A DNA stretch of 64,000 nucleotides. Source: Heptranchias perlo (Eukaryota). Below the pieces are notes generated by a model. That model had not been told where the DNA came from. It was given only the letters and a program-made list of their open reading frames with translations, and made no database searches. Both the position numbers and the translations under genes were made by a program. Within the stretch, counting starts at the first letter, position 1, and each line of letters starts with the position of its first letter. The stretch spans positions 16,554,001 through 16,618,000 of the forward strand of contig NC_090346.1 in NCBI RefSeq assembly GCF_035084215.1. The letters run 5' to 3'. Positions 1,420 through 58,270 of this stretch are shown piece by piece.

Positions 1420-1700
1420 CTCACACTCAAACACAAACACACACTCATTCAAAACACACACACTCACTCAAACTCACTCATTCAAAACACACACTCACTC
1501 ATTCAAAACACACTCATTCATTCAAAACACACACACACTCAAACTCAAACTCAAACACACACTCATTCAAAACACACACACTCACTCAAACTCAAACTCA
1601 CTCATTCAAAACACACACTCATTCAAAACACACACACACACTCAAACTCAAACACACACTCACTCATTCAAAACACACACACACTCTCACTCATTCAAAA
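1420..1700. repeat. CA-rich complex satellite (cactcattcaaaacaca), resuming at 2431-2559 and 5704-5730
   Basis: direct reading. Confidence 0.9.
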
Positions 1701-2431
1701 CAATTGTAAACAATTTTACAACACCAAGTTATAGTCCAGCAATTTTATTTTAAATTCACAAGCTTTCGGAGATTTTCTCCTTCCTCAGGCAAATGTTTCA
1801 AGAGCTCCTTGAAGCCTACGCATTTATACATATTGAACAATACATGGTGTTTACAGACTGCCCCTGCAACTGCCCGTTGCCAAGGCAATCACCGTGTTCA
1901 GACAGAGAGGTGTCACCTGCAGAACCCCCGAATACACATTCAACAAAAAAACAAACAGGGAAAGTTCCGCACCCATGAGGACGGCCTCAACCGGGATCTT
2001 GGGTTCATGTCACGCTACACGTTACCCCACCAGCGAACAAATGTTATCTGTTTTTAATATAATGGGTCATTTGCTGGCTCTCTCTGCCTTCCGGATGTTT
2101 CTGCCTCTCTCTGTGTTTTTTTTTCTCTGTTTTTTTTCCCTGTTTGTTTTTTTGTTGAATGTGTATTCGGGGGTTCTGCAGGTGACACCTCTCTGTCTGA
2201 ACACGGTGATTGCCTTGGCAACGGGCAGTTGCAGGGGCAGTCTGTAAACACCATGTATTGTTCAATATGTATAAATGCGTAGGCTTCAAGGAGCTCTTGA
2301 AACATTTGCCTGAGGAAGGAGAAAATCTCCGAAAGCTTGTGAATTTAAAATAAAATTGCTGGACTATAACTTGGTGTTGTAAAATTGTTTACAATTGTCA
2401 ACCCCAGTCCATCACCGGCATCTCCACATCA
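1701..2431 (+). mobile_element. 5'-truncated Penelope-like element with inverted pseudo-LTR copy
   Basis: arms 1701-1963 and 2135-2397 are reverse complements; spacer encodes KFRTHEDGLNRDLGFMSRYT, the same C-terminus as the PLE ORF at ~7680-7741; 3' tail ccccagtccatcaccggcatctccacatca. Confidence 0.88.
2304..2344 (+). ncRNA. Minimal hammerhead-ribozyme-like motif in PLE terminus
   Basis: AUUUGC-CUGAGGA-A-GGAGA aaa UCUCC-GAAAGCUU-GUGAAU; inverted twin at 1754-1794. Confidence 0.65.
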
Positions 2432-2559
2432 TTCAAAACACACACACACTCACTCAGACTCAAACACACACTCTCACTCATTCAAAACACACACACACAC
2501 TCATTCAAAACACACACACACTCACTCAAACTCAAACACACTCACAACACACACTCATT

Positions 2560-5500
2560 CATAGGAACATAGGAACAGGAGTAGGCCATTCAGCCCCTCG
2601 TGCCTGCTCCGCCATTTGATAAGATCATAGCTGATCTGTGATCTAACTCCATATACCTGCCTTTGGCCCATATCCCTGAATACCTTTGGTTGTCAAAAAG
2701 CTATCTATCTCAGATTTAAATTTAGCAATTGAGCTAGTTTCAATTGCCGTTTGCTGAAGAGAGTTCCAAACTGCTACCACCCTTTGTGTGTAGAAATGTT
2801 TTCTAATCTTGCCCCCTACTCCTAGAATCCCCAACCAGCGGAAATAGTTTCTCTCTATCCACCCTATCTGTTCCCCTTAATATCTTATAAACTTCGATCA
2901 GATCACCCCTTAACCTTCTAAACTCTAGAGAATACAACCCCAATTTGTGTAATCTCTCCTCGTAACTTAACCCTTGAAGTCCGGGTATCATTCTAGTAAA
3001 CCTACACTGCACTCCCTCCAAAGCCAATATGTCCTTCCGAAGGTGCGGTGCCCAGAACTGCTCACAGTACTCCATGTGCGGTCTAACCAGGGTTTTGTGT
3101 AGCTGCAGCATAACTTCTGCCCCCTTGTACTCCAGTCCTCTAGATATAAAGGCCAGCATTCCATTAGCCTTATTGATTATTTTCTGCACCTGTTCATGAC
3201 ACTTCAATGATCTTTGTACCTGAACCCCTAAGTCCCTTTGGACATCCACTGTTTTTAACTTTTTACCATTTAGAAAGTACCCTGTTCTATCCTTTTTTGA
3301 TCCAAAGTGGATGACCTCACATTTGTCTACATTGAATTCCATTTGCCACAGTTTTGCCCATTCACCTAATCTATCAATATCGCTTTGTAATTTTATGTTT
3401 CCATCTACACTGCTTACAATGCCACCAATCTTTGTGTCATCGGCAAACTTAGATATGAGACTATCTATGCCTTCATCTAAGTCGTTAATAAATATTGTGA
3501 ATAATTGAGGCCCCAAGATAGATCCCTGCGGGACTCCGCTAGTCACATCCTGCCAATGTGAGTACCTTCCCATTATCCCTACTCTCTGTCGCCTTTCGCT
3601 CAGCCAATTTTCTAACCAAGTCGGTACTTTTCCCTCGATTCCATGGGCTTCTAACTTAGCTAACAGTCTCTTATGTGGGACCTTATTAAATGCCTTCTGG
3701 AAGTCCATATAAATAACATCCATTGACATTCCCCTGTCCACTACTTTAGTCACCTCTTCAAAAAATTCAATCAGGTTTGTCAGGCACGACCTACCTTTCA
3801 CAAATCCATGCTGGCTCTCTCTGATTAACTGAAAATTCTCGAGGTGTTCAGTCACCCTATCCTTAATTATAGACTCCAGCAATTTCCCCACAACAGATGT
3901 TAGGCTAACTGGTCTATAATTCCCCGGTTTCCCTCTCTCTCCTTTCTTAAAAAGTGGAGTGACATGTGCAATTTTCCAATCTAGAGGGACAGTTCCTGAA
4001 TCTAGAGAACTTTGAAAGATTATAGTTAGGGCATCTGCAATGTGCTCACCTACTTCCTTTAAAACCTTGGGATGGAAACCATCTGGTCCTGGGGATTTGT
4101 CACTCTTTAGTGCTATTATTTTCTTCATTACTGTTGCTTTACTTATGTTAATTTTATCGAGTCCCTGTCCCCGATTCAATATTAGTTTTCTTGGGATTTC
4201 CGGCATGCTATCCTCTTTTTCTATTGTAAATACTGACGCAAAATAATTATTCAACATGTCCACCATTTTCCCATTGTCAATGACAATATCCCCACTTTCA
4301 GTTTTTAAGGGGCCAACACTGCTCCTGACCACCCTCTTTTTCCTAATATAACTATAAAAGTTCTTCGTATTGGTTTTGATATCCCTTGCAAGTTTCTTTT
4401 CATACTCTCTTTTTGTAGCTCTTACTATCTGTTTTGTGACCCTTTGTTGATCTTTGTATCTTTCCCATTCGCCAGGATCTGTGCCATTTTTTGCCTTTTT
4501 GTATGCCCTTTCCTTATGTCTTATACTGTCCCTTAACTCTTTAGTTGTCCATAGCTGTTTTTTTTGGCAAGTAGAGTTCTTGCCCCTCAGGGGTATAAAC
4601 GGATTCTGTATCTTGTTAAATGTTTCTTTAAACATTTCCCACTGATCATCGGTCGTTTTACCCATTAACAGATTTGCCCAGTTTACTGTGGACAGTCTCC
4701 GTCTCATCCCATTGAAGTCGGCCTTATCCAAGTCTAGAATCTTAGCAGCTTATTCACTTTTTTCCCTTTCAAACACTACATTGAACTCGATCATATTATG
4801 ATCGCTATTGGAAAGATGTTCACGCACAGTTAGCTGTTAACTAAATCTGGTTCATTACTCATTACTAAATCTAGTATGGCTTGCCCCCTTGTTGCCTCTA
4901 GGATATACTGCTGTAGAAAACTATCCCAGACACACTCAAGAAATTCACTACCTTTCTGACAGTTGCTAGTCTGCTTTCCCCAATCTATGTGAAGGTTAAA
5001 GTCCCTCATTAAGACCACCATGCCTTTGTTACATGCTTGTCTAATCTCTGCATTTATACAATCTAGCACTTCAGAGTTGCTGCCAGGGGTCCTATACACA
5101 ACTCCCACTATCGTCTTAGATCCTTTCCTATTTCTCAATTCAACCCATAAGGTCTCTGTTGGCTGCTTACCTCTCGTTATATCCTCCTTTATCATTGAAT
5201 TGATTTCATCTCTAATCACTAAGACTACTCCTCCCCCTCTTCCATTTTTCCTATCTCTCCTGTAGACCTTATAACCCAGTATATTTAGTTCCCAATCCTG
5301 ACCATCCTGCAGCCATGTCTCAGTAATAGCTATCATGTCATACCCTCCAATTTGAATTTGAATCTGTAGTTCATTTAATTTATTCCTTATACTCCATGCA
5401 TTTGTATATAGAACTCTTAGTTGGGTCACACACCCTAGCCTGACCTTCAGCTTTGATGCTGGGTTAATTGCCTTACGCCTTCTAGTTTTCACTATCTGTA

Positions 5501-5710
5501 GTGTCTAAAGCACACTTTCTTTCTGCTGCTCTACGCTTTTCCCTTTCACTTGTTCTTGAACAACTGTTTGTACTATTTGTATTGTAAATTTCCCCTGGGT
5601 TTTCCCCTCTCTTGCTGCTCTCAACTTTACTCCCTTCTGACTCCCCGCTAAGGTTCCCATCCCCCTGCCACTCTAGTTTAAACCTTCCCCAACAGCACTA
5701 GCAAACACTC
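2560..5710 (-). mobile_element. CR1-clade LINE: end of ORF1 plus near-complete but disrupted ORF2 (APE endonuclease + RT)
   Basis: APE motifs (YTNA, AITETW, ILDLV) at 4830-5492; RT motifs (NYRPVSLTS, GVPQGSILGP, FADD) at 2803-4731; frameshift near 4833, stop near 4750, deletion near 2810; short-repeat 3' tail at 2560. Confidence 0.93.
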
Positions 5711-7309
5711 AAAACACACTCACACTCAAACCGCATAGGTTACCGCATATATAGTCAGACAACAATGCCTGGTGATTACAGATAATCTTTCCAACTGCCC
5801 GTTGTCAAGGCAATCAAAGTGTTCAGACAGAGAGACATTACATACAGGACTACTGAATATACAAACGGTCAGAACCCAACTGGACAACCAGGAACACTAG
5901 AGACGGTTACCCGCAGATCCGACCAAAGAACACACCCACCAGCTCAACAAACTGATCAAGACCTTCGATCCAGACCCTCAAAGCATCCTACGTGCTCTCA
6001 TCCCACGTACTCCCCACGTGGGAGACTTCTACTGCCTCCCAAAGATACACAAAGCCAACACACCCGGATGTCCTATTGTATCAGGCAACGGAACCCCGTG
6101 TGAGAACCTCTCTGGATACGCCGAGGGCATCCTGAAACCCATCGTACAGGGAACCCCCAGCTTCTGTCGTGACACTACAGACTTCCTACAAAAACTCAGC
6201 ACCCACGGACCAGTTGAACCAGGAACACTTCTCACCACGATGGACGTCTCGGCACTCTACACCAGTATCCCCCACGATGACGGCATCGCTGCAACAGCAT
6301 CAGTACTCAACACCAACAGCCAATCTCCAGACGCCATCCTACAACTCATCCACTTCATCCTGGATCACAATGTCTTCACCTTCGATAACCAGTTCTTTAC
6401 CCAAACACATGGAACAGCCATGGGGACCAAATTCGCACCCCAATACGCCAACATTTTCATGCACAAGTTCGAGCACGACTTCTTCACTGCACAGGACCTC
6501 CAACCAACGCTATACACCAGATACATCGACGACATTTTCTTCCTATGGACCCACGGCGAAGAATCACTGAAGAGACTACACGATAACATCAACAAGTTCC
6601 ATCCCACCATCAAACTCACCATGGACTACTCCTCAGAATCGGTTTCTTTCTTGGACACACGAATCTCCAACAACGATGGGCACCTCAGCACCTCACTCTA
6701 CCGCAAGCCCACGGACAACCTCACGATGCTCCACTTTTCCAGCTTCCACCCTAACCACGTCAAAGAGGCCATCCCCTATGGACAGGCCCTGCGAATACAC
6801 AGGATCTGCTCAGACGAGGAGGAACGCGATGGACACGTACAGACGCTGAAAGACGCCCTCGTAAGAATGGGATATGACGCTCGACTCGTCGATCGACAGT
6901 TCCGACGGGCCAGAGCGAAAAATCGCATAGACCTCCTCAGAAGACTAACACGGGACGCAACCAACAGAGTACCCTTCGTCATCCAGTACTTCCCTGGAGC
7001 GGAGAAACTACGTCATGTTCTCCGCAGCCTTCAACATGCCATCGATGACGACGAACACCTCGCTAAGGCCATCCCCACGCCTCCACTACTCGCCTTCAAA
7101 CAGCCACCCAACCTCAAACAGACCATCGTTCGCAGCAAATTACCCAGCTTTCAGGAGAACAGCGTCCACGATACCACACAACCCTGCCACGGCAACCTCT
7201 GCAAGACATGCCGATCATCGACACAGATACCACCATCACACGAGAGGACACCACCCACCAGGTACATGGTTCATACTCCTGTGACTCGGCCAACGTTGTC
7301 TACCTCATG

Positions 7310-7445
7310 CATAAGAACATAAGAAATAGGAGCAGGAGTAGGCCAATCGGCCCCTCGAGCCTGCTCCGCCATTCAATAAGATCATGGCTGATCTGATCCT
7401 AACCTCAAATCTAAATTCATGTCCAATTTCCTGCCTGCGATTTCC
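7310..7445 (-). mobile_element. Short CR1 3'-end insertion inside the PLE endonuclease domain
   Basis: cataagaacataagaaataggagcaggagtaggcc tail interrupts VVYL|CRKGC; near-identical to 33092-33198. Confidence 0.8.
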
Positions 7446-7995
7446 TACATTGCAGGAAAGGATGCCCCGGAGCATGGTACATTGGCGAGACCATGCAGAC
7501 ACTGTGACAATGGATGAACGGACACCGTGCAACAATCGCCAGACAGGAGGGTTCCCTCCCAGTCGGGGAACACTTCAGCAGTCATGGACATTCAGCCACC
7601 GATCTTCGGGTAAGCGTTCTCCAAGGCGGCCTTCGAGACACACGACAATGCAAAATCGTTGAGCAGAAATTGATAGCCAAGTTCCGCACCCACGAGGATG
7701 GCCTCAACCGGGATCTTGGGTTCATGTCACGCTACACGTAACCCCACCAGCGAAAAAAGAGTTATCTATTTTTAATACAACTGGTCATTCTCTCTCTTTC
7801 TCTTCCTTTCGGATGTTTCTCTCTCTCTCTCTGTCTTTGGGTTCTGACCGTTTGTATATTCAGTAGTCCTGTATGTAATGTCTCTCTGTCTGAACACTTT
7901 GATTGCCTAGACAACGGGCAGTTGGAAAGATTATCTGTAATCACCAGGCATTGTTCTCTGACTATATATGCGGTAACCTTCAAGAAATCCCACAC

Positions 7996-8032
7996 TCACC
8001 TGATGAAGGAGAAAGCCTCCGAAAGCTTGTGA
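7996..8032 (+). ncRNA. Minimal hammerhead-ribozyme-like motif in PLE terminus
   Basis: UCAC-CUGAUGA-A-GGAG aaagc CUCC-GAAAGCUU-GUGA. Confidence 0.7.
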
Positions 8033-8625
8033 TTTTCAAATAAAACTGTTGGACTATAACCTGGTGTTGTAAGATTCCTTACATTTGTCCACCCCAGTCC
8101 ATCACCGGCATCTCCACATCACCCCTACCCAGGCAGCACTGACTCTCGCTGAGGTGCAGTTCCACGGACACTGGGATGCACTTCAGGGCCTCGACCCACG
8201 CGGCCGTTATACGCCTTGCCCTCAGGGAGGAAACCTGGGATCTTCCGGTATGTACACTTCAGTGGGGGAAGCCCTGGCTTTAAGTCGGATTGTGGTTCAG
8301 CTGCAGGTGGAGTTGGAAGCATTTTCGGTACTCCTCTCCCCTCCCCTCTACCCCTCCCTCTCTTCCTCTCCCCGCTCCCTCCCTCCCTCTCCCCCACCCC
8401 TCTCCCCACTCTGTGCTCCCCCCTCTTGTTTTTGGTTTTGCCTGAACTTTGACCTATTTGTGAGACACACTTTTTTCCACACAGGAAGAGGGGACGCCTG
8501 GCCTCAGCTAGCACTGAGTGAGAAAGGGAAGATTGAGAGATGCAATGCGAGTCAGATCTCCAAACTGCTGAAGACATTATTATCAATGAGCTACTTAACC
8601 TGGACCACAGCTGGATAAAAAATGA

Positions 8626-11764: not shown

Positions 11765-12130
11765 TCAATAACTGCAAGACTCAATAGTGGAGGTGTCTTG
11801 GATGAAACCACTCCGTATTCGTAAGGTTTGGTAAGTGGGGGGCAGCGTGTCTGGGACAGGCTGGCGAGGTAACTGTAGGGCTGAGTTGAAAGTTGGTGGG
11901 TCCTCATCGCTGATGTAGAAGGGGCTTCCATGAGCCGTGTTACTGGCGGTAGGAGGCAGTTGCTGTTCCTCTTCTTTCCTCCACCACCTGCGTACGGTCT
12001 GCACACCCTTCCGAGCAGCGATCAGGAACATGTCGATGAAGAACACCTCCACGATCTCGATGATGCAGACTACAGAGCAGCTCATCCATAGTCCCAGCTG
12101 GCCCCCAAAGTTCGAGAGTAAGGTCACAAC
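11765..12130 (-). CDS. SCNN1G: ENaC gamma last coding exon (TM2, selectivity filter, PY motif)
   Basis: VVTLLSNFGGQLGLWMSCSVVCIIEIVEVFFID (gamma-type SCS filter), DEDPPTF, PPTYQTL, stop TGA ending at 11765. Confidence 0.96.
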   Translation of the reverse strand, partial: VVTLLSNFGGQLGLWMSCSVVCIIEIVEVFFIDMFLIAARKGVQTVRRWWRKEEEQQLPPTASNTAHGSPFYISDEDPPTFNSALQLPRQPVPDTLPPTYQTLRIRSGFIQDTSTIESCSY

Positions 12131-12539
12131 CTGAGATGAGAGAGGTGGTGGAATTAGCTCTGGTACAGAGTCACCGATTGTGGCCTGGACCCGTGAATTG
12201 GGGGGGGAAGGAGCAGGTTGGAACTTGGGGTGCAGACCCCCAATCGGAACACTTTGCTGGCTCCTTGGACCTGGTTCCTGGGCTCTGTTCTCCCTTTTGC
12301 CAGTTTTTAATGATTTCCTTCCCACTGCCTATTCTGTTTGGTTTCCGATTTCCTGCGCCTGCAGTATTTTACTTCACTAAATGAGCCTTTTGTTTGGATT
12401 AGATCATTTGTTTAGATTTATTTTTTATAGCAAACAGCATGGGCTGTTAATGTTCACTTACAGAAAGTGGACAACCTTATCGATACATGACAGCGACGAA
12501 TCTCGACAAGATGTCTATCTGGGCACTGAGGGTCCAAGA

Positions 12540-12862
12540 CCCGATCACCCACCATCTCCTGTACTTGCTGACCGACATTGACTCCAGGTCTGGGAATGCC
12601 TCAAATTCTCATCCTTGTTTTCAAATCCCTCCATGGCCTCGCCCCTCCCTACCTCTGTAACCTCCTCCAGCCCTACGACCCTCCGAGATCTCTGCGCTCC
12701 TCCAATTCTTGCCTCTTGCGCATCCCTGATTTTAATGGCTCCACCATTGCCATCCGTGCCTTCAGCTGCCTAAACCCTGAGCTCTGGAATTCCCTCCCTA
12801 AACCTCTCCGCCTCTCTACCTCGCTCTTCTCCTTTAAGACCCTCCTTAAAACCTACCTCTAC
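12540..12862 (+). mobile_element. L2 LINE 3' fragment
   Basis: ILILVFKSLHGLAPPYLCNLL...RAFSCL.PELWNSLP; homologous to the 35597, 43935, 53075 and 60790 fragments. Confidence 0.75.
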
Positions 12863-12865
12863 TAC

Positions 12866-13440
12866 CTATTACGACAATTGTACAGGGCTTTGGTGAGACC
12901 TCACCTGGAATACTGTGTACAGTTTTGGCCTCCTTATCTCCTTAGAGGCGGTGCAATGAAGGTTCACTAGATTAATTCCTGGGATGAGAGAGTTGTCATA
13001 TGAGGAGAGGTTGAGTAGAGCGGGCCTATACTCTCTGGAGTTTAGATGAATGAGAGGTGATCTCATTGAAACATCTAAGATTCTGAGGGGGCTTGACAGG
13101 GTAGATGCTGAGAGGTTGTTTCCCCTGGCAGGAGATCTAGAACTAGGGGCCATAGTCGCAGGATAAGCAGTCGGCCATTTAAGACTGAGATGAGGAGGAA
13201 TTTCTTCACTCAGAGGGTTGTGAATCTTTGGAATTCTCTACCCCAGAGGGCAGTGGATGCTCAGTCGTTGAATATATTCAAGACTGAGATAGATAGATTT
13301 TTGGACTCTAGGGGCATCAAGGGATATGGGGATTGTGCAGGAAAGTGGAGTTGAGGTTGAAGATCAGCCATGATCTGATTGAATGGTGCAGCAGGCTCAA
13401 GGGGCTGAATGGCTTCCTCCTGTTCCTATGTTCCTTCCTA
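12866..13440 (+). mobile_element. CR1 3' fragment
   Basis: [17 protein letters not shown], then tail ctcctgttcctatgttcc. Confidence 0.85.
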
Positions 13441-13842
13441 TATTCCTCTCCTGAAGACCTGGACTTCGTGCTGGGAACAGTTTCAGGGATGCATGTTGCC
13501 ATCTGAGTATTATTCATCTGTGAGCCTCGAGTGTGATGGTCATCGGGCTATTCTACCACAGAGCCATCACAGACAAGACTGATCCCCATTGTCACCTAAC
13601 GTCCAGTTATGTCCACTTCTGGTTGGAGTCACTGGATGACAATCAGGAGTGGGAACCCTTACTAACTGTCTGCTCTCTAACCCATCGGTGCTGAGACCAA
13701 TGTGCCTCTACTGTTGTCCCAACTGAGATCATCTAGCTCAGCACAGACCAGGGAATCAACCTGGGATCTTCCTGCTCTGTTTGGCTCACAATAAGCTTGC
13801 TGGGCCATCAGGAAGTCCAATGAGTATAATTCTGATACTTAC

Positions 13843-13918
13843 ATTATTTGCAGGTGTCTCAGAGATGTTCCTCAGATTAAGATCTTTGTAGAAGATGCCC
13901 AGATTGGCCAACTCATTC
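13843..13918 (-). CDS. SCNN1G: ENaC gamma coding exon 11
   Basis: NELANLGIFYKDLNLRNISETPANN; 76 nt; tggcag/gtaagt. Confidence 0.93.
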
Positions 13919-14156
13919 CTGCCAAGTAGAAATAAGACCATGAAAGTCTCAGTTAAGTCTGTGCATGTTGTTATATACATGGCTACTAGATACAGACTTA
14001 AAACACAGAATAGGCTAGACCACTCCCCCTTACTCCCATTGAAAGAAGAAGGAAAGACTTGCATTTCTAGAGCGCCTTTCATGACCTCAAGACATCCCAA
14101 AGCACTTTACAGCCAGTGAAGTATTTTTTGAAGTGTAGTCACTGTTGTAATGTAGG

Positions 14157-14429
14157 AAACCCCTTCCCATTCACTCCCATTGTACAGAATCCCAACGGAC
14201 CAAACCCCTTCCCATTCACTCCCATTGTACAGAATCCCAACGGACCAAACCCCTTCCCATTCACTCCCATTGTACAGAATCCCAACGGACCAAACCCCTT
14301 CCCATTCACTCCCATTGTACAGAATCCCAACGGACCAAACCCCTTCCCATTCACTCCCATTGTACAGAATCCCAACGGACCAAACCCCTTCCCATTCACT
14401 CCCATTGTACAGAATCCCAACGGACCAAA
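14157..14429. repeat. 45-bp perfect tandem repeat, 6 copies
   Basis: aaaccccttcccattcactcccattgtacagaatcccaacggacc. Confidence 0.97.
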
Positions 14430-14517
14430 GACTAGAGGTATTAAAGGCTCCAGCCTATCCCATGGCGTAAGGCAGCACCCTCAGGAAATTAGGGCGAGTT
14501 AACAAATCAGAACTTAC

Positions 14518-14579
14518 TTTGTCAGTGTTCTGTTCCCATGGAGACCATTTTCCCAGCTCAGAAGACGAAGGATCCGCTC
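14518..14579 (-). CDS. SCNN1G: ENaC gamma coding exon 10
   Basis: ERILRLLSWENGLHGNRTLT; 62 nt; caatag/gtaagt; phase fits neighbours. Confidence 0.88.
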
Positions 14580-14651
14580 CTATTGGAGGAAGGACAACGG
14601 GGTGAGATAATCCTGTCCCGTTCAGCAGCATAAGGACCGGGGCAGCTCAGT

Positions 14652-15075
14652 CCCCCCGCGGACAGGCCCCCCCCACCGCCGCGGTCGAGGCCCCCCCTCC
14701 GCGGACAGGGCCCTCCCCTCCTGCCACGGACAGGGCACCCCCTCCCCCCGTGGACAGGGCACCCCCCCACCCCGCGGACTTGGCACACCCCCGCGGGCAG
14801 GGCACCCACCCCACCGCGGACAGGGCACACCCCCCCCACAGACAGGGCACCCACCCCACCGCGGACAGGGCACACCCCCCCCACAGACAGGGCACCCACC
14901 CCACCGCGGACAGGGCACACCCCCCCCACAGACAGGGCACCCACCCCATCGCGGACAGGGCACCCACCCCATCGCGGACAGGGCACCCAACCCGCGGACA
15001 GGGACCCCCCCCCCCCTGCTGCGGACAGGGCACCCCCCACCGCGGATGGGGCACTTCCCCCTGCAGACAGGGCAC
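14652..15075. repeat. GC-rich minisatellite (gcggacagggcacccacccc variants, 42-bp dimer)
   Basis: direct reading. Confidence 0.9.
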
Positions 15076-15249
15076 CTCACTCTCCTCCCTCTCACCGTGT
15101 CCGGGACACTCCACCATGACCTCTATCCAACTCATTTAAAAACCTTCCACCGACCCTGCTCCACCCATTTAATCTCCTCAAGCAAAAGTTCTGAAACATT
15201 TCTCCCTGTCCCAGAAATAAGTTACACAAACTCATCAGTAAAAGGTGGA

Positions 15250-15600
15250 CTGTGTGTGGGTGTGTGTTTGTGTCTTTTCGGGTGTGCGTGTATCTCAGTT
15301 GCAGGTTTGTGTGTGCTTGTATATGTGTGTAAGTGTGCATCTGTGAGGGTGTGTGTAGGTGTGCGAAAGTGCATGGATGTGACTGGGTTTGTGACTGAGT
15401 GAGTTTGTGTGTGTGAACCTAAGTATATGAGAGGTTGTGAGTTTTTGAGGGTGGATGTGAGTGAGAGTATGTGTGTGTGTAATTGAGTGCGTGTGTCTGA
15501 GTGTGTGTACGTGTGAATGAAAGTGTGTAATTGTGTTTGGGTAATTGAGTGTGTGTGTGTGTGTGTGTGAGTGTGAGTGTGAATGAGTGTGTGCAGGTGT
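15250..15600. repeat. Degenerate (GT)n-rich tract
   Basis: direct reading. Confidence 0.85.
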
Positions 15601-15729
15601 ATATTCACACTACGTGCCTCCCCAAAAATGTTTCCCTTTAAACACTTTTCTCATCTCATACAGTCCGACTATAAATTAATAATTCAGTTACCAGAGAACA
15701 GATACATCTCCTTAGGTGAGGCTGCTCAC

Positions 15730-15787
15730 CTCAGATGGTGATGACGGCCACTGGGCAAGACTGATGGTCATTGTCCATTCCTTGGAA
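15730..15787 (-). CDS. SCNN1G: ENaC gamma coding exon 9
   Basis: SKEWTMTISLAQWPSSPSE; 58 nt; ccacag/gtgagc. Confidence 0.93.
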
Positions 15788-15872
15788 CTGTGGAAAGATC
15801 ACATGATCGTTACCGAGTAACTCAGACCCTTACCACAGTAACTCAGCTCGCTGATAAATAGAAACATAGGAG

Positions 15873-18170
15873 CATTGAACTGGACACTGGCCCAGTACTG
15901 AACTGGACACTGGCTCAGTACAGGACCCAGTACTGAACTGGACACTGGCTCAGTACAGGGACCAGTATTGAACTGGACACTGGCTCAGTACAGGACCCAG
16001 CATTGAACTGGACACTGGCCCAGTACTGAACTGGACACTGGCTCAGTACAGGACCCAGCATTGAACTGGACACTGGCTCAGTACTGAACTGGGCACTGGC
16101 TCAGTACAGGACCCAGTATTGAACTGGACACTGGCTCAGTACAGGACCCAGTATTGAACTGGACACTGGCTCAGTACGGGACCCAGTATTGAACTGGACA
16201 CTGGCCCAGTACAGGACCCAGTATTGAACTGGACACTGGCTCAGTACAGGACCCAGCATTGAACTGGACACTGGCTCAGTACAGGGACCAGTATTGAACT
16301 GCACACTGGCTCAGTACAGGACCCAGTATTGAACGGGACACTGGCTCAGTACAGGACCCAGTACTGAACTGCACACTGGCCCAGTACTGAACTGGACACT
16401 GGCTCAGTACAGGACCCAGCATTGAACTGGACACTGGCTCAGTACTGAACTGGGCACTGGCTCAGTACAGGACCCAGTATTGAATTGGACACTGGCCCAG
16501 TACAGGGACCAGTACTGAACTGGACACTGGCTCAGTACAGGGACCAGTATTGAACTGGACACTGGCTCAGTACAGGACCCAGCATTGAACTGGACACTGG
16601 CTCAGTACTGAACTGGGCACTGGCTCAGTACAGGACCCAGTATTGAACTGGACACTGGCTCAGTACAGGACCCAGTATTGAACTGGACACTGGCCCAGTA
16701 CAGGACCCAGTATTGAACTGGACACTGGCCCAGTACAGGAACCAGTATTGAGCTGGACACTGGCCCAGTACAGGACCCAGTATTGAACTGGACACTGGCT
16801 CAGTACAGGGACCAGTATTGAACTGGACACTGGCTCAGTACAGGACCCAGTATTGAACGGGACACTGGCTCAGTACAGGACCCAGTACTGAACTGGACAC
16901 TGGCCCAGTACTGAACTGGACACTGGCTCGGTACAGGACCCAGTATTGAACTGGACACTGGCTCAGTACAGGACCCAGTACTGAACTGGACACTGGCCCA
17001 GTACAGGCACCAGTATTGAACTGGACACTGGCTCAGTACAGGACCCAGTATTGAACTGGACACTGGCCCAGTACAGGGACCAGTATTGAACTGGACACCG
17101 GCCCAGTACTGAACTGGACACTGGCCCAGTACTGAACTGGACACTGGCTCGGTACAGGACCCAGTATTGAACTGGACACTGGCTCAGTATAGGACCCAGT
17201 ATTGAACTGGACACTGGCCCAGTACAGGGACCAGTATTGAACTGCACACTGGCTCAGTACAGGACCCAGTATTGAACTGGACACTGGCTCAGTACAGGAC
17301 CCAGTATTGAACTGGACACTGGCTCAGTACAGGACCCAGTATTGAACTGGACACTGGCTCAGTACAGGACCCAGTATTGAACTGGACACTGGCTCAGTAC
17401 AGGACCCAGTATTGAACTGGACACTGGCTCAGTACAGGGACCAGTATTGAACTGGACACTGGCTCAGTACAGAGACCAGTATTGAACTGGACACTGGCCC
17501 AGTACTGAACTGGACACTGGCCCAGTACAGGACCCAGTATTGAACTGGACACTGGCCCAGTACAGGGACCAGTATTGAACGGGACACTGGCCCAGTACAG
17601 GGCCCAGTATTGAACTGGACACTGGCCCAGTACAGGACCCAGTATTGAACTGGACACTGGCCCAGTACAGGGACCAGTATTGAACTGGACACCGGCCCAG
17701 TACTGAACTGGACACTGGCCCAGTACTGAACTGGACACTGGCTCGGTACAGGACCCAGTATTGAACTGGACACTGGCTCAGTATAGGACCCAGTATTGAA
17801 CTGGACACTGGCCCAGTACAGGGACCAGTATTGAACTGGACACTGGCCCAGTACAGGGACCAGTATTGAACTGGACACTGGCTCAGTACAGGGACCAGTA
17901 TTGAACTGGACACTGGCTCAGTACAGGACCCAGTATTGAACTGGACACTGGCCCAGTACAGGGACCAGTATTGAACTGGGCACTGGCTCAGTACAGGACC
18001 CAGTATTGAACTGGACACTGGCCCAGTACAGGGACCAGTATTGAACTGGACACTGGCCCAGTACAGGACCCAGTATTGAACTAGACACTGGCTCAGTACA
18101 GGACCCAGTATTGAACTAGACACTGGCTCAGTACAGGGACCAGTATTGAACTGGACACTGGCTCAGTACC
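15873..18170. repeat. 35-bp satellite (cagtattgaactggacactggctcagtacaggacc) with 22-bp deletion variants
   Basis: direct reading, ~2.3 kb. Confidence 0.97.
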
Positions 18171-18381
18171 GGACCAGCCTTTACTGTATTTGCTCAGTTG
18201 GTCTGGTAATCAGGAGGGAGGGAGGGAGGTGCTGCTCTGTAGTGAGTGCTGAGAAGATCGGCTTTAAATGTTATGGGGAATTCTTGTGATTCTGTATCCA
18301 TGTGCTTCTCTCCAGATCAACCTCATGATTGGGGAAGTATTGTCAGGTGTTGGGCCCACGCATCAAACCTCAGGAACGTAC

Positions 18382-18460
18382 TGACAGGCTGGTCGGCAAA
18401 CCTTCTGGCAAACCAGCTGCTCCTGAATAAACTTGTCGTGCAGTCTGTAATAGCAGGAAA
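18382..18460 (-). CDS. SCNN1G: ENaC gamma coding exon 8
   Basis: ISCYYRLHDKFIQEQLVCQKVCRPAC; 79 nt; ccgcag/gtacgt. Confidence 0.92.
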
Positions 18461-19134
18461 CTGCGGGAAAAACAAAAACACTTTCTTAAACAATCGCACA
18501 TAACAACAATATAACCTCGCTTGATATAAACACAGAATTAAGTCCATATAGTTCCAGATTTCCACTCCCCTTTGTGTGAAGAAGTGCTTCCTGATTTCAC
18601 CACTGAACGGCCTGGCTCTAATTTGAAGATTATGCCCCCTTGTTCTGGACTCTCCCACCAGAGGGAATAGTTTCTCTGTATCTCCCCTATCAGAACCCTT
18701 TATCAAGGTCAAACATCTTACGTTAAAAATAACAAATATACGAATACCTCACAGGTGTTAATATTTGTCAAGCTCAAAATCCTTACTACTTCAATGAATA
18801 TCAGGCAAGCAAAGCCCCTCAGCGACATTAGTCAAACAGCAGGTCCTCGTCCTTTTCTTTATCATTTTAAGCTCCTTGATGAGATCCCCCCCTCAACCTT
18901 CTCCCGACATCCTGCTCAACGTTCCTCCCCCAGCCATCACCGTACAAAACGATTAACTGGACTTTCAAGGTGTTGCTGTTTTTTGGGGAACTCTCTGTGC
19001 AGAAAATGGCCGTTTCATTTACCAATACAACAGGTCAATGCACTTCAAAGTGATTCGCTGCCTGACCATCTTTGGATGTGATAGGGTGCTACACAAATGG
19101 AGGTGGTCTACTAACACAGGAAGTGTGAACTCAC

Positions 19135-19252
19135 TCCACCCCGGGTACTTTTTGTAGTTGCAGTATTCTTCGCCCGCTGGCAGTGGATTCTCGTAGTGAG
19201 CACAGCCACAACTTTGAACCATCTCCATCTGAAAGCACGAGTGCAGGCACAT
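19135..19252 (-). CDS. SCNN1G: ENaC gamma coding exon 7 (thumb cysteines)
   Basis: MCLHSCFQMEMVQSCGCAHYENPLPAGEEYCNYKKYPGW; 118 nt; ccacag/gtgagt. Confidence 0.95.
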
Positions 19253-19342
19253 CTGTGGAGAACAGAAAGTCTCCCATTGGTCTGCGGCCTTTACTCTCAA
19301 CGTAGGTTTGGACCGACGGCCGTGAGTGAGCTGGAGTGTTAC

Positions 19343-19441
19343 CTGTAATGAGTAGGTCTTGTTGTAGAGGTTTGTCACAGGCACATCGAGTCCATCTGGT
19401 GTACAGTCACTATAGGGGCTGCTCAGTCTCTGCGATACAGT
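19343..19441 (-). CDS. SCNN1G: ENaC gamma coding exon 6
   Basis: TVSQRLSSPYSDCTPDGLDVPVTNLYNKTYSLQ; 99 nt; tttcag/gtaaca. Confidence 0.94.
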
Positions 19442-20249
19442 CTGAAACAACAGCAAAAAGGGCATTTTGGAAAACACTGGACTTCTGAGAGTTTTCAGGA
19501 AGAGGCCGATCACAGCTAACAAGACCACCAAAGTCGACTTTCCAGTCGGTGGCGATCGTGTACAAACACTTAATAGCATTCACACTACATTCCTATACAC
19601 TGTTTCTTCGCAGGTGTTAACCCGTTAGTGGGAATATAGCACATTACAGCAAGCATTCAACAACAGACTTAACCAATTGGATGATCGGCTATTAGATCTG
19701 AACCCCACATTCCCACCTTCCCCCCCATATCACTCAAGCTCATCCACCCAGCTTCTCCCTATCCCTCTCAATCCCACCAACTCACCTTCACCCCATATCC
19801 CTCTCAATCCCACCAACTCACCTTCACCCCATATTACTCAATCCCACCGTATCACCTTCTCCCCATATCCCTCAATCCCACCTACCCACCCTCATATCCC
19901 CCATTAAATTGCCTCCTGAGCTTATCTATACTGGCTGCCCCACTCCATCACCCTTTGGGTGAAAAGTTTCCCCTCACTTCCCTTCTTATTCCTAACTAAC
20001 AAAATGTTTTAATTGCATCACCACAGTTTTGTCAGTCCCCTTAAGAATCTTTGGTCAGCTCACCTTGAAGTCTTTTTTTCCCCCAAAGTAAACAGTCTTG
20101 ACTTTTGTAGCTAGTACCTGAACCGAGTGTGTGTAACACTGTGACGTTTGCTATGGCATCTGGCCGACCGGGATTATCAGCTCATGCGTTATCTTTAATT
20201 GCCCCCCTCCCCGGGCCTTGGTGGACGAGTTTCCTGCTGGATAGTTTAC

Positions 20250-20413
20250 CATGTCCAGGCCCATGGATGTCTCCGTTGCTGTCTGTATCTCAATCCCCAC
20301 ATCTTCAATGAAGGGCTGTTCATTCTGATCGTGAATGGAAATCTTTGCTCCCATCGAGGTGACCAGATATGGATTATATTCATCCTCAGCCAAGTGCAGA
20401 GTCACCTTCAAGC
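20250..20413 (-). CDS. SCNN1G: ENaC gamma coding exon 5
   Basis: GLKVTLHLAEDEYNPYLVTSMGAKISIHDQNEQPFIEDVGIEIQTATETSMGLDM; 164 nt; ag/gt ends. Confidence 0.95.
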
Positions 20414-20426
20414 CTGGGAGGTTCAA

Positions 20427-20858
20427 AAGAAAGAAAGAAAGGGACTTGCATTTCTATAGCGCCTTTCATGACTTCAGGATGTCCCAACTTTACAGCCAAT
20501 AAACTGTACTCACTGTTGTAATGTAGGAAATGCGGCAGCCAATTTCACACAGCAAGATCCCACAAACAGCAATGTGATAATGGCCAGTTTTAGTGATGTT
20601 GGTTGAGGGATAAATATTGTCCAGGAGATCGGGGAGAACTCCCCTGCTCTTCTTTGAATAATGCCATGGGATCTTTTGTGCCCGCCTCAGAGGGTTTAAC
20701 ATCTCATCTGAAAGACGGCACCTCCGACAATGCAGCACTCCCTCAGTATTGTACTGGGAGTGTCAGGCTGGATTTTGTGCTCAAGTCTCTGGAGTGGCGC
20801 ATGAGCCCATGACCTCTGACCCAGAGGCGAGACAGCTACCCACTGAGCCACAGCTGAC
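20427..20858 (-). mobile_element. DeuSINE-type SINE abutting the acceptor of SCNN1G coding exon 5
   Basis: full head-core-tail similarity to the other copies; (aaag)n tail ends ~14 nt from the exon. Confidence 0.75.
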
Positions 20859-21705
20859 ATAAGCCATCGATTGTTAATACTCCTCTGAGCAGCAGTTTAT
20901 TCCCTTTAAATCAATTTTTCTCCTCAGTTTTTCTCCCATTCTCTCCTGAAAGCACTGACTTTCAGGGATACAGTTGCCTAGGTCCGGGCCTATATGTGAC
21001 TCCAGTCCCACATTAATGTGGTTGATTCTTAAATGCCCTCTGAAAGTGGCCTAGCAAACCCCTCAGCTGTATCAAACTACGCAAGTAGAAGGCCCACCAC
21101 CACCTTCTCAGGGCAGCGAGGGATGGGCAATAAATACCGGCCTTGTCAATGACGCCCACTTCCCGAGAATAATTTTTTTTTAAATACCAAGGGAAGCTCT
21201 GGTTATGAAGAGAATTTGCTTTATTTCATTAATGCAGAGAGGTCTGATAGAGGGGTTCAAAATTACTAAAGGTCTTGATTTCGGGAAAAACAATTCCCGC
21301 TGGTCGGTGAGTTGGTAACTAGAGGGCAAAAATTTAAAGAACAAAGGGAGAGGTTGAAGAAATGTTCCCACGCAGAGAGTTATTCAGATGTGGATTGTCC
21401 AATCAGAAACAGTGGGGGAAGCAGAATAGCCTTTAAAAGAAAAGTGGATAAATACTTGAAAAAGAAAAATTTGAAGGGTTATGAGGAAAGGGCGGGGGAA
21501 TGGGTCTAATGGGACTCTTTCACTGAGTGGGCACAGGTACGGTGGGCCCAACGGCCTCCTTCTGTGCTGTCCAATTCTGTAATTATAGTTGTTATTGAAT
21601 GCAGTCAGGTATTCACATCAGTCAGAGCACGGCAGAGTGTTTGGTGCAAAGTTAAAAACAGCTGATAAGAGGTCAAGGGGCAGCAGCGAGTCACACAATG
21701 AGATG

Positions 21706-22814: not shown

Positions 22815-23282
22815 TGTGTGAGAAGAAACCTATCTCTATCTCTAAGGTCACTGCCTTGTGGTCAGAAATGTAACAAAACTTAACAGAGAAGAATGGAAAC
22901 TGCTGGAGGAGGAGGAAGAGAAAGAAAGGCTGGAGTGGGTGATGGAAAATGTGAGCTGAGAGATTTGAGGGAGTTTCCCAGTGGGTCAGTGAGTTAATCC
23001 AGCCATTAGCTGAGCTATTCAGACCAGGAAGGACCCTGGGTTGAGTCCTGGTATCAGCAGGATGGAGAGCTACCAGCGGGGTTCAATGAGGAGAAAATTA
23101 GCCAGGGTTTTCCTCACAGATTAATGGATTGCTCCCCCTCCCCCAACGAGAATCCAGAGCAAAGGCTTGGCCTCCCAGCAGAGTAAAGTGTTGTTCAAAA
23201 TAATTGGAAGGCTCCGTTTTCTCTTGAACTTTAGATTTTGCCCCTCTCTGGGAGGTGAATGTTGTTGCCGGGTGGGTTTTAC

Positions 23283-23386
23283 CGTTTTCGCTGCCGCCGG
23301 TGGTGGTCCGTAGAACGTGGCCATTCTCTCCACCATTGAAGGTGAAACAGTTTCCATGCAGGGGGTGGTGCATCAGACTGAAGTTC
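23283..23386 (-). CDS. SCNN1G: ENaC gamma coding exon 4
   Basis: NFSLMHHPLHGNCFTFNGGENGHVLRTTTGGSEN (GNCxTFN motif); 104 nt; ag/gt ends. Confidence 0.95.
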
Positions 23387-23980: not shown

Positions 23981-24036
23981 CTGTCACAGGGGAGACGGAA
24001 AAAAGCATTCATTACAAAAAGAAGCTGCACCAACAG

Positions 24037-26880: not shown

Positions 26881-26904
26881 CTTTGGACAGAGCCTGGACT
26901 TCGC

Positions 26905-30918: not shown

Positions 30919-31470
30919 CAGCATTTACCATCAGAATGGGGCCCACCTGCACTGGGACACCTCCTCCTCCGCTCTGGGTTAGGTGGTTGCCTAAAGATAA
31001 CTCTGAGTGACAGGACACCACAGGTGGTACAGGAGCCATCCTGACATTAAACGTACGGCACAGAACCACTGTGGTGAGCGAACCCTTCCATACTGCATTT
31101 AAAAAAAATTTAAATCATAAAATGTATGACCGAACCTGCCATGGGTTATATTAATATACCGCACAAAACTAGTAATATACATTTAACAACACAGTAACAG
31201 TGGGAATGATGATCTTATCCCAATAAACCCATGAGGTGGGAATGGTTAATGTTACGTGCATCCTTCCCTTGATGTGAGTACAGCCCACAGGAGTGTGAAC
31301 TGAACAAGACTGCCGTGTTTCACAAACCAATGCTGTACTGCCACCTAGCCATTGACTGTTAGCTACACTCCTGGGACAGACTTTCACCGGAGGAGCTGAG
31401 CACTCACAACACCCAGTACGGCCTGCAGTGCAGCCTGTCTCCAATGGATGTTAGTGCCTGGGTTATTACA

Positions 31471-31649
31471 TGATGTGGAGATGCCGGTGATGGACTGGGG
31501 TTGACAATTGTAAACAATTTTACAACACCAAGTTATAGTCCAGCAATTTTATTTTAAATTCACAAGCTTTCGGAGATTTCCTCCTTCCTAAACATTTGCC
31601 TGAGGAAGGAGGAAATCTCCGAAAGCTTGTGAATTTAAAATAAAATTGT
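31471..31649 (-). mobile_element. PLE-derived fold-back mini-element with hammerhead-like motif
   Basis: antisense PLE tail followed by a sense copy; motif at 31594-31634; 12-bp TSD tgggttattaca at 31459-31470 and 31650-31661. Confidence 0.85.
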
Positions 31650-32152
31650 TGGGTTATTACACACAGCTGAGGCAGAGGGAAGGTTCCCTTCTCCATCTGC
31701 TGGATCAAATGCAGACTTCCAGCCCTGCGGTTTGCCCTGTTTGAATTCTGTGAGTCAGGACGCTTGGAAAGGGCTGTTTTTAACGCACTGATTGGTGAAT
31801 AAATCCTAAAACCAGAACACCCAGATCTGTTAGCTTGAGACAGATTAATAGGAACACGGATTCAATTGTAGTGGGGGAATTTTCCGATCTCATGAGCTTC
31901 TGAGATTGCAAATCAGAAATTCAGAAATTGTGGGCAGGGTGTCCCTGAATTTCTGATCTTCGCCACTTGATGGATGAGGCTCCCTCCCGGAAACACAGAC
32001 TTGGACAATTAATTACCCCTTATCCGCAGCCCGTGGCTTCATGTTACGCACCTAAACGGCCCACGAAGATAATAAGCTCAGACCCTCCTGAGCTGAGGAA
32101 CTCAACGAAGCAGTGACCTGTGTCCTGTTGGGGGGAGATGGAGGGGCAGGAG

Positions 32153-32642
32153 TAGGGTTGCCAACTCTGGTTGGATGTATTCCTGGAGGTTTCATCACAT
32201 GACCTCCTGCCTCCAACCGGACAACCAGCCATTTCTCCCCATCTCCAATATTCTTATAACTAAGATGTGGAGATGCCGGTGATGGACTGGGGTGGACAAA
32301 TGTAAGGAGTCGCACAACACCAGGTTATAGTCCAACAGCTTTATTTGAAATCACAAGCTTTCGGAGCCTTGCTCCTTCGTCAGGTGAAGACTTCACCTGA
32401 AGACTTCACCTGACGAAGGAGGAAAGCTCCGAAAGCTTGTGATTTCAAATAAAGCTGTTGGACTATAAGCTGGTGTTATGCGACTCCTTACATTCTTATA
32501 ACTAATAAACAAAAGTACTCAAAGAAAATGAAAATGTTAATGCCCCTATGATTTTTCTCCCGGTTTGCTCACAGCCGTGTCCTGGAGATTAACCTTTATT
32601 TCCTGGAGACTCCAGGACAATCCTGGAGGGTTGGTCACCCTA
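32153..32642. mobile_element. Non-autonomous DNA transposon (MITE-like) hosting the PLE mini-element
   Basis: terminal inverted repeats tagggttgccaac / gttggtcacccta; internal tcctggag repeats. Confidence 0.6.
32264..32491 (-). mobile_element. PLE-derived fold-back mini-element with two opposed hammerhead-like motifs
   Basis: motifs at 32351-32387 (-) and 32406-32442 (+); 14-bp TSD attcttataactaa at 32250-32263 and 32492-32505. Confidence 0.87.
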
Positions 32643-57179: not shown

Positions 57180-58270
57180 AGAATCATAGAATCCTAGAGC
57201 ACAGAAGGTGGTCATTCGGCCCGTTGTGCAAGTGCCGGCTCTTTGAAAGAGCTGTCCAATTTAGTGCCACACCCCAGCTTTTTCCCCATAATCCTGCAAA
57301 TTAGTCCTCTTCAAGTACATGTCCAATTGTCTTTTAAAAGTTCCTATGCAATCACCTTCCACCACCCTTTCAGGTAGTGCGTTCCAGATCTTAACAGCCT
57401 CATTTCCCCTCTAGTTCTTTTGCCAATTATTTTAAATCTACGACCTCTGGTTACTGACCAGTTTGTCAGAGGAAACAGTTTCTCCCTATTTGCTCTATCA
57501 AAATCCCTCATAATTTTGAATATCTCTCCCCTTACCCTTCTTTGCTCTAAGGAGAACAATCCCAGCTTCTCCAATCTCTCCATGACTGAAGTCCACCATC
57601 CTGGTAAACCTCCTCTGTAACCTCTTCAAGACCTTGACATCCTTCCTAAAGTATGATGTGCAGAATTGTACACAATATTCCATCTGAGGCCCAACTGGTG
57701 ATTTGTAAAGGTTTAACATGACTTCCTTGTTTTTGTATTCAATGCCCCTGTTTACAGATAGTAGCCATGATGTGGAGACTCGCTCACCTGACGAAGGAGA
57801 AAGCCTCCGAAAGCTTATGATTTTCAAATAAAACAGTTGGACTATAACCTGGTGTTGTAAGATTCCTTACACCTGTTTACAGAGCCAAGTATCCCATATG
57901 CTTTCTCAACCTCCTTATCAACTTGCCCTGCCTCTTTCAAAGATTTGTGAATATGCACCCCCCAGGTCCCTCTTCTCTTGCACTCCCTCAAAATTGTACC
58001 ATTTAGATTATACTGCCTCTCCATGTTGTTCCTCCCAAATTGCATCACTTCACACTTATCTGCATTAAATTGTATCTGCCCATTTCACCAGTCTGTTTAT
58101 GTCACCAACTGTTTACTACGTTGCCAAGTTTTGTATCACCCGCAAACTTTGAAATCGTACTCCCTATTCCCAAGTCCAGGTCATTTATATGTAACAAGAA
58201 AAGCAATGGTCCTAATACCAACTCCAGTCAGAAAAACATCCGTTCACCACCACTCTGCTTCCTATCCCGT
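57180..58270 (-). mobile_element. Decayed CR1 fragment
   Basis: RLEKLGLFSLEQRR, EYCVQF; interrupted by the PLE mini-element. Confidence 0.82.
57759..57871. mobile_element. 113-bp PLE mini-element nested in a CR1 fragment
   Basis: ~20 nt antisense tail then a sense hammerhead-like motif at 57784-57820; 12-bp TSD cctgtttacaga at 57747-57758 and 57872-57883. Confidence 0.85.

What the first reader, a model, noticed from the sequence alone, without database searches (positions are those of the whole stretch)
7996..8032. Family of ultra-minimal hammerhead-like ribozymes showing structure-preserving variation
Seen: seven complete copies (1754-, 2304+, 7996+, 31594+, 32351-, 32406+, 57784+) fit stemI-CUGANGA-A-GGAG(loop)CUCC-GAAAGCUU-stemI. 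The only core position that varies is N7 (G/U/C), the known free position of the hammerhead core. Stem II pairs are invariant while its loop varies. Stem I is UCAC/GUGA in one subfamily and AUUUGC/GUGAAU (two G-U wobbles) in the other. Stem III is reduced to the palindrome AGCU and there is an extra A after A9. Known: PLE termini carry minimal type I hammerheads thought to cleave as dimers. Inference: selection on an unusually reduced, dimer-dependent ribozyme in this lineage. The 57784 copy has a stem I mismatch and is likely dead.
Basis: partly seen in the sequence, partly recalled or inferred. Interest (0 to 1): 0.7.

Follow-up and report, generated by a model that had tools for sequence, protein, structure and literature searches.

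The report
Minimal hammerheads of a Penelope retroelement
These seven motifs are real copies of an already described tiny hammerhead RNA motif, predicted to cut itself only in pairs, that sits at the ends of a very abundant Penelope-type jumping gene, and most genomic copies were likely made from RNA that had not been cut.

Summary
The seven motifs are real (0 in 100 shuffles) but come from five insertions of one Penelope-like retroelement (PLE) family of Neptune/Nematis type. The genome holds 71,237 exact matches and intact 3,081-nt tandem units with a 902-aa RT plus GIY-YIG frame. Every 'unusual' trait (extra base after A9, G10.1-C11.1, stem III shrunk to a palindrome) is a defining trait of the minimal PLE hammerhead of Cervera and De la Pena 2014; their turtle example has the same GAAA-GCU-U. 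Selection is plausible: across 122 long copies no core position has a lineage-level variant, while N7, the loop and stem I do, and stem I changes keep pairing. Insertion 5' ends do not pile up at the predicted cut; they cluster just upstream of the motif, about 30 nt after a TATA-like box. Cleavage itself was not testable. This scan has noted the same thing on much other DNA (1,136 notes in at least 37 genomes, 241 in this one). New member of a known kind; low interest, but a good test system.

The parts
7996..8032 (+). Minimal type I hammerhead: stem I 7996-7999 with 8029-8032, core CUGAUGA 8000-8006, extra A 8007, stem II 8008-8011 with 8017-8020, GAAA 8021-8024, palindrome AGCU 8024-8027, U17 8028; predicted cut between 8028 and 8029
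   Evidence: numbering as in PMC4209133
7963..7969 (+). TATA-like box of the pLTR, 37 nt before C3; predicted transcription start a few bases before stem I
   Evidence: sequence; a TATA-like motif lies 36-47 nt before C3 in 60 of 72 long copies; promoter function inferred
8087..8121 (+). About 34-nt PLE tail; in intact tandem units it ends at the ATG of the ORF, 92 nt after the predicted cut
5877..8121 (+). 5'-truncated, broken PLE copy: RT frame 93% identical to the intact protein, frameshift near 7214, unrelated insertion at about 7309-7442, endonuclease remnant, 3' pLTR with the hammerhead
5737..5879 (-). Inverted pLTR piece of the same insertion (99% complementary to 7837-7979), without hammerhead
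1700..2432 (.). Two-armed inverted insertion: minus arm 1700-1963 without tail, plus arm 1962-2432 with tail; 99.6% identical to an intact unit
1754..1794 (-). Hammerhead copy with 6-bp stem I (two G-U pairs)
2304..2344 (+). Hammerhead copy, identical to the 1754 copy
31470..31650 (.). Short two-armed insertion with a 12-nt target duplication; minus arm with tail, plus arm starts 10 nt before C3
31558..31589 (-).
31594..31634 (+). Hammerhead copy
32264..32494 (.). Short two-armed insertion with a 13-14-nt target duplication, one hammerhead per arm (32351-32387 minus, 32406-32442 plus)
57768..57871 (.). Short insertion: inverted tail stub, then a plus arm starting 10 nt before C3; hammerhead 57784-57820 with a C-A mismatch at the first pair of stem I

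Best explanation
The motif is the minimal hammerhead in the pseudo-LTR of a young, very abundant Penelope-like retroelement, predicted to cut slowly after U17 only when two copies pair through their AGCU palindromes, which likely trims tandem read-through transcripts into 3,081-nt units, while most genomic copies are likely by-products copied from uncut RNA. Shown: position in the pLTR of an element with an RT plus GIY-YIG frame; order TATA-like box, hammerhead, 92 nt, ATG; identical tandem units 3,081 nt apart; two-armed insertions with one tail and target duplications of about 12 nt; no lineage-level change in the core. Inferred: transcription starts just before stem I; reverse transcription starts at the tail and often runs off the RNA's 5' end about 130 nt upstream, which makes the many short hammerhead-bearing stubs; selection acts on the rare more-than-unit copies that found new lineages. 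From the literature, untested here: dimer-only, slow and possibly protein-assisted cleavage, and ligation of cut units into circles.
For: Window copy 7996 ends a PLE remnant. Intact 902-aa ORF with RT (PF00078), a C-x4-CxxC linker and a weak GIY-YIG match (E 0.0003, just under the Pfam cut-off). 71,237 exact motifs, control 0; 43,266 exact tails; 686 exact tail-to-ORF junctions. Units of the L031 array are identical up to the tail. In 122 long copies from 100 loci no variant seen 3 or more times at any of 13 core positions, but such variants at N7, 10.5, 11.5, two loop bases, 2.1-2.4, 1.4, 1.5 and all 8 positions further upstream. In 13 recurrent haplotypes all four stem I pairs vary on one side only and stay paired; 10.5-11.5 is G-C 6, A-U 5, G-U 1, unpaired 1. 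In contigs of one run labelled as another organism the differences inside the motif fall on N7, 10.5, a loop base, 11.5 and 2.2. 103 of 112 arm pairs have exactly one tail, target duplication mode 12. 5' ends of 79 arms from tail-selected loci: 32 at 28-51 nt upstream of the cut, 11 at 4-27, none at 0-3, 11 at 52-119, 15 further, 10 downstream. Published: same motif consensus and weak dimer cleavage (PMC4209133); internal RT start at the tail, uncut RNA as dominant template, protein-assisted cleavage (PMC11167929).
Against: No cleavage was observed; only contigs were available. No pile-up of 5' ends at the cut: 180 junctions there, 162 two bases upstream, about 240 two bases downstream after removing a stem variant lineage; 0 of 30 tail-to-ORF loci start at the cut. 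Covariation is limited to one weak pair closing a 3-nt loop, the shuffle control is borderline (8 of 500) and ignores relatedness, and an A.C lineage exists there (25 of 271); no family with a double change at 10.2-11.2 (11 hits against 26 in the control). Part of the 122 copies were found with an exact-core pattern, which biases towards conservation, and the tail is about as invariant as the core. ViennaRNA puts the active swapped dimer 0.9 kcal/mol above two monomers and the 6-bp AAGCUU register, which would pair U17, about 2.6 kcal/mol lower. U4C is shared by both arms in 9 insertions among the first 100 of 642 hits, so core-mutant templates were likely inserted. The cluster upstream of the motif is partly a microhomology effect (57 of the first 100 of 1,441 hits share one AAA/TTT join), at least 3 of the 32 ends are false ends of lineages missing from the reference panel, and the intended control was confounded by another lineage.
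Confidence: 0.7

Rival explanations
1. The sequence is kept as a binding, pairing or promoter signal in the RNA leader and cleaves rarely or never; catalysis would be dispensable for the element or the ribozyme would be a passenger.
For: No trace of cut templates; both-arm U4C insertions; one two-armed insertion lacks the motif in both arms (L148); hammerhead mutants did not affect insertion in vitro for an anole PLE (PMC11167929); Naiad PLEs spread without canonical hammerheads (PMC8557442).
Against: The fixed and free positions match the catalytic consensus base by base, including free N7; U4C is only 642 against 71,237 and is spread over many loop types, so it founded no lineage here; the distance from the TATA-like box to C3 varies from 36 to 47 nt, which does not suit a fixed downstream promoter element.
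Confidence: 0.2
2. The copies look conserved only because the family is young; there would be no selection on the motif.
For: The seven copies are five insertions, several 99% identical to intact units; monomer folding energies are not unusual (z -0.6 to -1.9); pair-keeping changes in stem I are all transitions, the commonest change.
Against: Lineages differ at all 8 positions just upstream of stem I and at N7 and the loop but at none of 13 core positions; common changes occur at the four stem I bases where a transition keeps pairing and not at their partners.
Confidence: 0.06
3. The motifs form a separate small mobile family (retrozyme or SINE-like) rather than PLE ends.
For: Most copies are short and lack the ORF; one 404-nt by 9.5 tandem array with a hammerhead per unit exists elsewhere in the genome.
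Against: Every window copy aligns to the 3' end of the PLE unit at 83-99.6%, 5' ends vary from copy to copy, and the 404-nt array's own junction occurs only in that array (9 of 9 hits).
Confidence: 0.04

Closest known systems
Minimal hammerheads (min-HHR) in pLTRs of metazoan PLEs (Cervera and De la Pena 2014, PMC4209133; main text parts 1-2 of 4 and supplement parts 1-2 of 3 read)
   Same: Type I, CUGANGA plus one extra base, G10.1-C11.1, palindromic 15.2-16.2 with no loop 3, short helix I, mostly single truncated copies, opposite-strand pairs. The turtle row of their Fig. S3 has the same G-C palindrome and U17; the lamprey row the same UCAC/GUGA stem I.
   Different: Stem II is at the short end (4-5 bp); copy number (71,237 exact matches) is far above the about 4,000 and 9,000 reported for coelacanth and Xenopus with another search method; no cartilaginous fish is among the rows I read.
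PLE hammerhead variants that cleave as dimers (Lunse, Weinberg, Breaker 2017; paper not held, only its title and a review's summary seen, PMC6765202 passages)
   Same: Very short palindromic stem III; dimer cleavage proposed.
   Different: Could not compare sequences; no activity data for this family.
Poseidon element PAc of the green anole (Frangieh et al. 2024, PMC11167929; parts 1-2 of 4 read)
   Same: Hammerhead in the pLTR, two RT start sites that bound the tail, both target strands cut and extended, uncut RNA as main template, no read ends at the cut.
   Different: In PAc the ORF starts inside the hammerhead and RT starts 111-118 nt into the ORF; here the cut is 92 nt before the ATG and the tail ends at the ATG; this element has the Cys linker that Poseidon lacks.
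Neptune (and Nematis) clade endonuclease-bearing PLEs (PMC8557442 and PMC3846280, passages read)
   Same: Single ORF, RT then CX2-5CxxC linker then C-terminal GIY-YIG; partial tandems, inverted 5'-truncated copy, 30-40-nt tail.
   Different: No tree was built, so Neptune versus Nematis is not resolved; target duplications here are about 12 nt (8-10 in the rotifer examples read).
Non-LTR retrozymes of animals (bioRxiv 10.64898/2026.07.22.740005; part 1 of 5 and passages read)
   Same: Type I hammerheads derived from PLE pLTRs.
   Different: The window's copies are dispersed element ends, not tandem arrays; only the 404-nt array elsewhere in the genome fits that definition.

Membership tests
Metazoan PLE minimal hammerhead | Core CUGANGA ... 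GAAA ... NUH in type I order | tested here: met
   7 of 7 copies; triplet is CUU
Metazoan PLE minimal hammerhead | Extra nucleotide between 9 and 10.1 and G10.1-C11.1 pair | tested here: met
   A in 268 of 271 copies; G10.1 and C11.1 in 265 of 271 each
Metazoan PLE minimal hammerhead | Helix III reduced to palindromic 15.2-16.2 without loop | tested here: met
   G15.2 270 and C16.2 269 of 271
Metazoan PLE minimal hammerhead | Located in the pLTR of a PLE | tested here: met
Metazoan PLE minimal hammerhead | Compensatory variation in helices | tested here: inconclusive
   one pair with two-sided change, four with one-sided change, four invariant; no double change at 10.2-11.2
Metazoan PLE minimal hammerhead | Self-cleavage as a dimer, none as a monomer | not testable with these tools
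   only energy estimates and contigs
Rfam hammerhead families | Match at gathering threshold | tested here: not met
   0 matches in the window; the reduced motif lacks helix III
Neptune/Nematis-type endonuclease-bearing PLE | Single ORF with RT followed by C-terminal GIY-YIG | tested here: met
   902 aa; RVT_1 above cut-off; GIY-YIG E 0.0003, 21.5 bits against cut-off 22.6
Neptune/Nematis-type endonuclease-bearing PLE | CX2-5CxxC linker between RT and endonuclease | tested here: met
   C-x4-CxxC near residues 753-761
Neptune/Nematis-type endonuclease-bearing PLE | Partial tandems, inverted truncated copy, 30-40-nt tail at one end | tested here: met
Neptune clade proper | RT phylogeny | not tested
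   no named reference PLE proteins were at hand
Non-LTR retrozyme | Tandem array with a hammerhead in each unit, no coding part | tested here: not met
   window copies are dispersed or inverted pairs; one such array elsewhere

The most novel reading that the evidence does not exclude
The AGCU palindrome is an RNA dimerisation signal, like a retroviral kissing loop: it pairs two element RNAs in one RT dimer so that both nicked target strands are primed at once, giving the two-armed inverted insertions, and cleavage is a late, secondary step. Insertions whose two arms come from different lineages yet share one target duplication (L071, L072) would be fossils of two-template events; the unique 404-nt by 9.5 array of near-identical units inside one 12-nt duplication would be a fossil of copying round an RNA circle.
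Probability: 0.15. Interest if true: 0.65.

Novelty: new member of a known kind. Interest (0 to 1): 0.22.

Why it matters
As a ribozyme it adds nothing new in kind. Its use is practical: what PLE hammerheads do is still open (PMC8557442 says so; PMC11167929 found them dispensable for insertion in vitro), and this family offers intact young elements, several lineages and tens of thousands of insertion footprints on which cleavage, dimer and circle models can be tested.

Tried and rejected
Rfam scan: no match. Pile-up of 5' ends at the cut: not found; 7 of 30 cut-site junctions inspected are inverted joins that use stem I as microhomology. Compensatory family at 10.2-11.2: not found. A U4C lineage as noted for other genomes: not found here. 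An extra cap-derived G at 5' ends: not separable from the templated G in the lineage tested. Control for the upstream cluster: confounded by another lineage; the second histogram has false peaks at 29 and 36 from a lineage missing in the panel and was not used; one search is noisy for the same reason. RNA runs: only contigs, RNA status a guess; four runs of one sample cover the element and almost none of the flank but cannot show ends, strand or cleavage. Bacterial promoter scan: irrelevant, no hit. No solved structure related to the ORF by sequence. The script stopped before its last test (downstream positions); one search was used for that. The Lunse 2017 paper is not held.

Full report
Observation. 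The pattern CUGANGA-A-GGAG-loop-CUCC-GAAAGCUU occurs seven times in the window at the stated places and never in 100 shuffles. An eighth copy, cut off inside the core, lies at 31558-31589 minus. The copies belong to five insertions; two carry a complete copy on each arm. Rfam gives no match.

What it belongs to. The 7996 copy closes a 5'-truncated retroelement at 5877-8121 with an RT frame and an inverted piece at 5737-5879. The genome (G000, 3.25 Gb) has 71,237 exact matches to the 29-nt motif, control 0. [quoted passage not shown] The window's frame is 93% identical to it, and all window copies align to the unit's 3' end. By the features given in PMC8557442 (passages) this is a PLE of Neptune/Nematis type. 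That the host is a shark-like fish is my recollection of such repeats and the wording of earlier AI notes; I did not test it.

Anatomy of the element end. In order: a TATA-like motif 36-47 nt before C3 (60 of 72 long copies), stem I and the hammerhead, the predicted cut, then 92 nt to the ATG. The last 34 nt before the ATG are the PLE tail. There are 43,266 exact tails but only 686 exact tail-to-ORF junctions. Of 112 inverted arm pairs listed, a few counted twice through overlapping loci, 103 have exactly one tail, and the shared flank is most often 12 nt (46 of 103). The window's three short insertions show duplications of 12-14 nt; the two long ones gave no clear one.

Is the motif under selection? 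In 122 long copies from 100 loci no core position (0 of 13) has a variant seen three or more times; N7 (C 65, G 53, U 3), 10.5, 11.5, two loop bases, 2.1-2.4, 1.4, 1.5 and all 8 positions further upstream do (the upstream comparison is ungapped, so indels inflate it). Part of these loci were found with an exact-core pattern. In the 112 copies from loci not chosen on the motif the core differences are scattered or come from junctions. On 13 recurrent haplotypes all four stem I pairs change on one side only and stay paired, four stem II pairs never vary, and 10.5-11.5 is G-C 6, A-U 5, G-U 1, unpaired 1; 8 of 500 shuffles reach the score, a control that ignores relatedness. An A.C lineage at that pair includes the 7996 copy (25 of 271). 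No family with a double change at 10.2-11.2 exists at this spacing (11 hits, control 26). Contigs of one run labelled as another organism differ inside the motif only at N7, 10.5, a loop base, 11.5 and 2.2 (1-3 contigs). U4C occurs 642 times against 71,237, over many loop types. I read this as purifying selection on a hammerhead, with thin covariation. U7 in the 7996 copy is likely CpG decay.

Does it cut? A monomer folds stems I and II but has no room for stem III. A strand-swapped dimer gives a 4-bp stem III; ViennaRNA scores it 0.9 kcal/mol above two monomers, and the 6-bp register that pairs U17 about 2.6 lower. These energies do not model the core, but they fit a slow or assisted ribozyme. 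If cut RNA were a usual template, 5' ends should pile up at the cut. They do not: 180 junctions at the cut, 162 two bases upstream, and 1,352 two bases downstream of which 82 of the first 100 are a stem variant lineage, leaving about 240. None of 30 tail-to-ORF loci starts at the cut; 20 run on upstream and 10 start downstream (some loci share an insertion). Nine insertions among the first 100 U4C hits carry it on both arms, so core-mutant templates were likely inserted.

Where the copies do end. Following a lead from earlier notes, I mapped 5' ends. Of 79 arms in tail-selected loci 32 end 28-51 nt upstream of the cut, that is at or up to about 20 nt before C3, against 11 in the next 68 nt and 11 at 4-27 (at least 3 of the 32 are false ends). 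In the lineages with the AAACAUUU leader, 1,441 junctions lie 10-11 nt before C3, about 30 nt after the TATA-like box, though 57 of the first 100 share one microhomology join and my control failed. The window's 31594 and 57784 copies both start 10 nt before C3. The likely reading: the hammerhead occupies the first 10-45 nt of the transcript, RT starts at the tail and often runs off the RNA's 5' end. This is inference; no RNA ends were available.

Comparison with what is known. Cervera and De la Pena 2014 (PMC4209133) define this motif: extra base between 9 and 10.1, G10.1-C11.1, palindromic 15.2-16.2, no activity as monomer and low activity as dimer for a schistosome example; their alignment has a turtle motif with the same palindrome and U17 and a lamprey motif with the same stem I. 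A review summarises dimer cleavage (PMC6765202 passages); Lunse 2017 itself was not held. Frangieh 2024 (PMC11167929) found two internal RT starts bounding the tail, uncut RNA as main template and protein-assisted cleavage. A TATA box and initiator-like sequence in a pLTR, inverted pLTRs, tail and duplications are described for rotifer PLEs (PMC3846280 passages); the fly element has an internal promoter (PMC2377424 passages). Three searches of the held library found no paper joining Penelope, shark genome and hammerhead ribozyme, Neptune, Penelope, shark and retrotransposon, or pLTR, hammerhead, transcription start site and TATA; a 2026 preprint on retrozymes sampled one cartilaginous fish (supplements closed).

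Side findings behind the novel case. Of 79 arm pairs with one tail, a duplication of 8 nt or more and 50 or more aligned bases, 10 differ at two or more sites where both states recur elsewhere; 3 are junction artefacts, 5 are weak, and 2 (L071, L072) clearly join two lineages inside one duplication. Most pairs match, so two-template events are at best a minority, and heterogeneous tandem sources could explain them. One array of 9.5 units of 404 nt, identical but for one base in two units, sits inside a 12-nt duplication and its junction occurs nowhere else; copying round a circle or later tandem expansion would both fit.

Verdict. Observation confirmed; interpretation partly supported; new member of a known kind; interest 0.22. 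The scan has noted this motif many times before (1,136 notes in at least 37 genomes; 241 in this genome).

Noticed in passing
L249:357-4183 (G000:C2:21272856-21276682): Array of 9.5 near-identical 404-nt units (pLTR, hammerhead, tail, first 130 nt of the ORF) inside one 12-nt target duplication; its junction is unique in the genome. Retrozyme-like; possible rolling-circle product.
   Followed up: partly
L071 and L072: Two-armed insertions with one target duplication whose arms carry different lineage loops, suggesting two RNA templates in one event.
   Followed up: partly
L148: Two-armed insertion whose arms share a rearranged leader with no hammerhead.
   Followed up: no
L154 and 8 more pairs: U4C core change shared by both arms of single insertions.
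   Followed up: partly
window 57750-57885: The target duplication of the 57768 insertion differs by 5 extra bases on the left side.
   Followed up: no
window 11765-29360 minus strand: Exons of an amiloride-sensitive sodium channel gene (PF00858) with large minisatellites in the introns, one starting right at an exon end (27841-28919).
   Followed up: no
window 37390-38304 plus strand: First exon of a ubiquitin-specific protease gene (PF00443).
   Followed up: no
window 2803-5504 minus strand: LINE remnant with endonuclease and RT frames lying between two PLE insertions.
   Followed up: no
window 7309-7442: Short repeat inserted into the PLE endonuclease region; 98% alike to 33093-33198.
   Followed up: no
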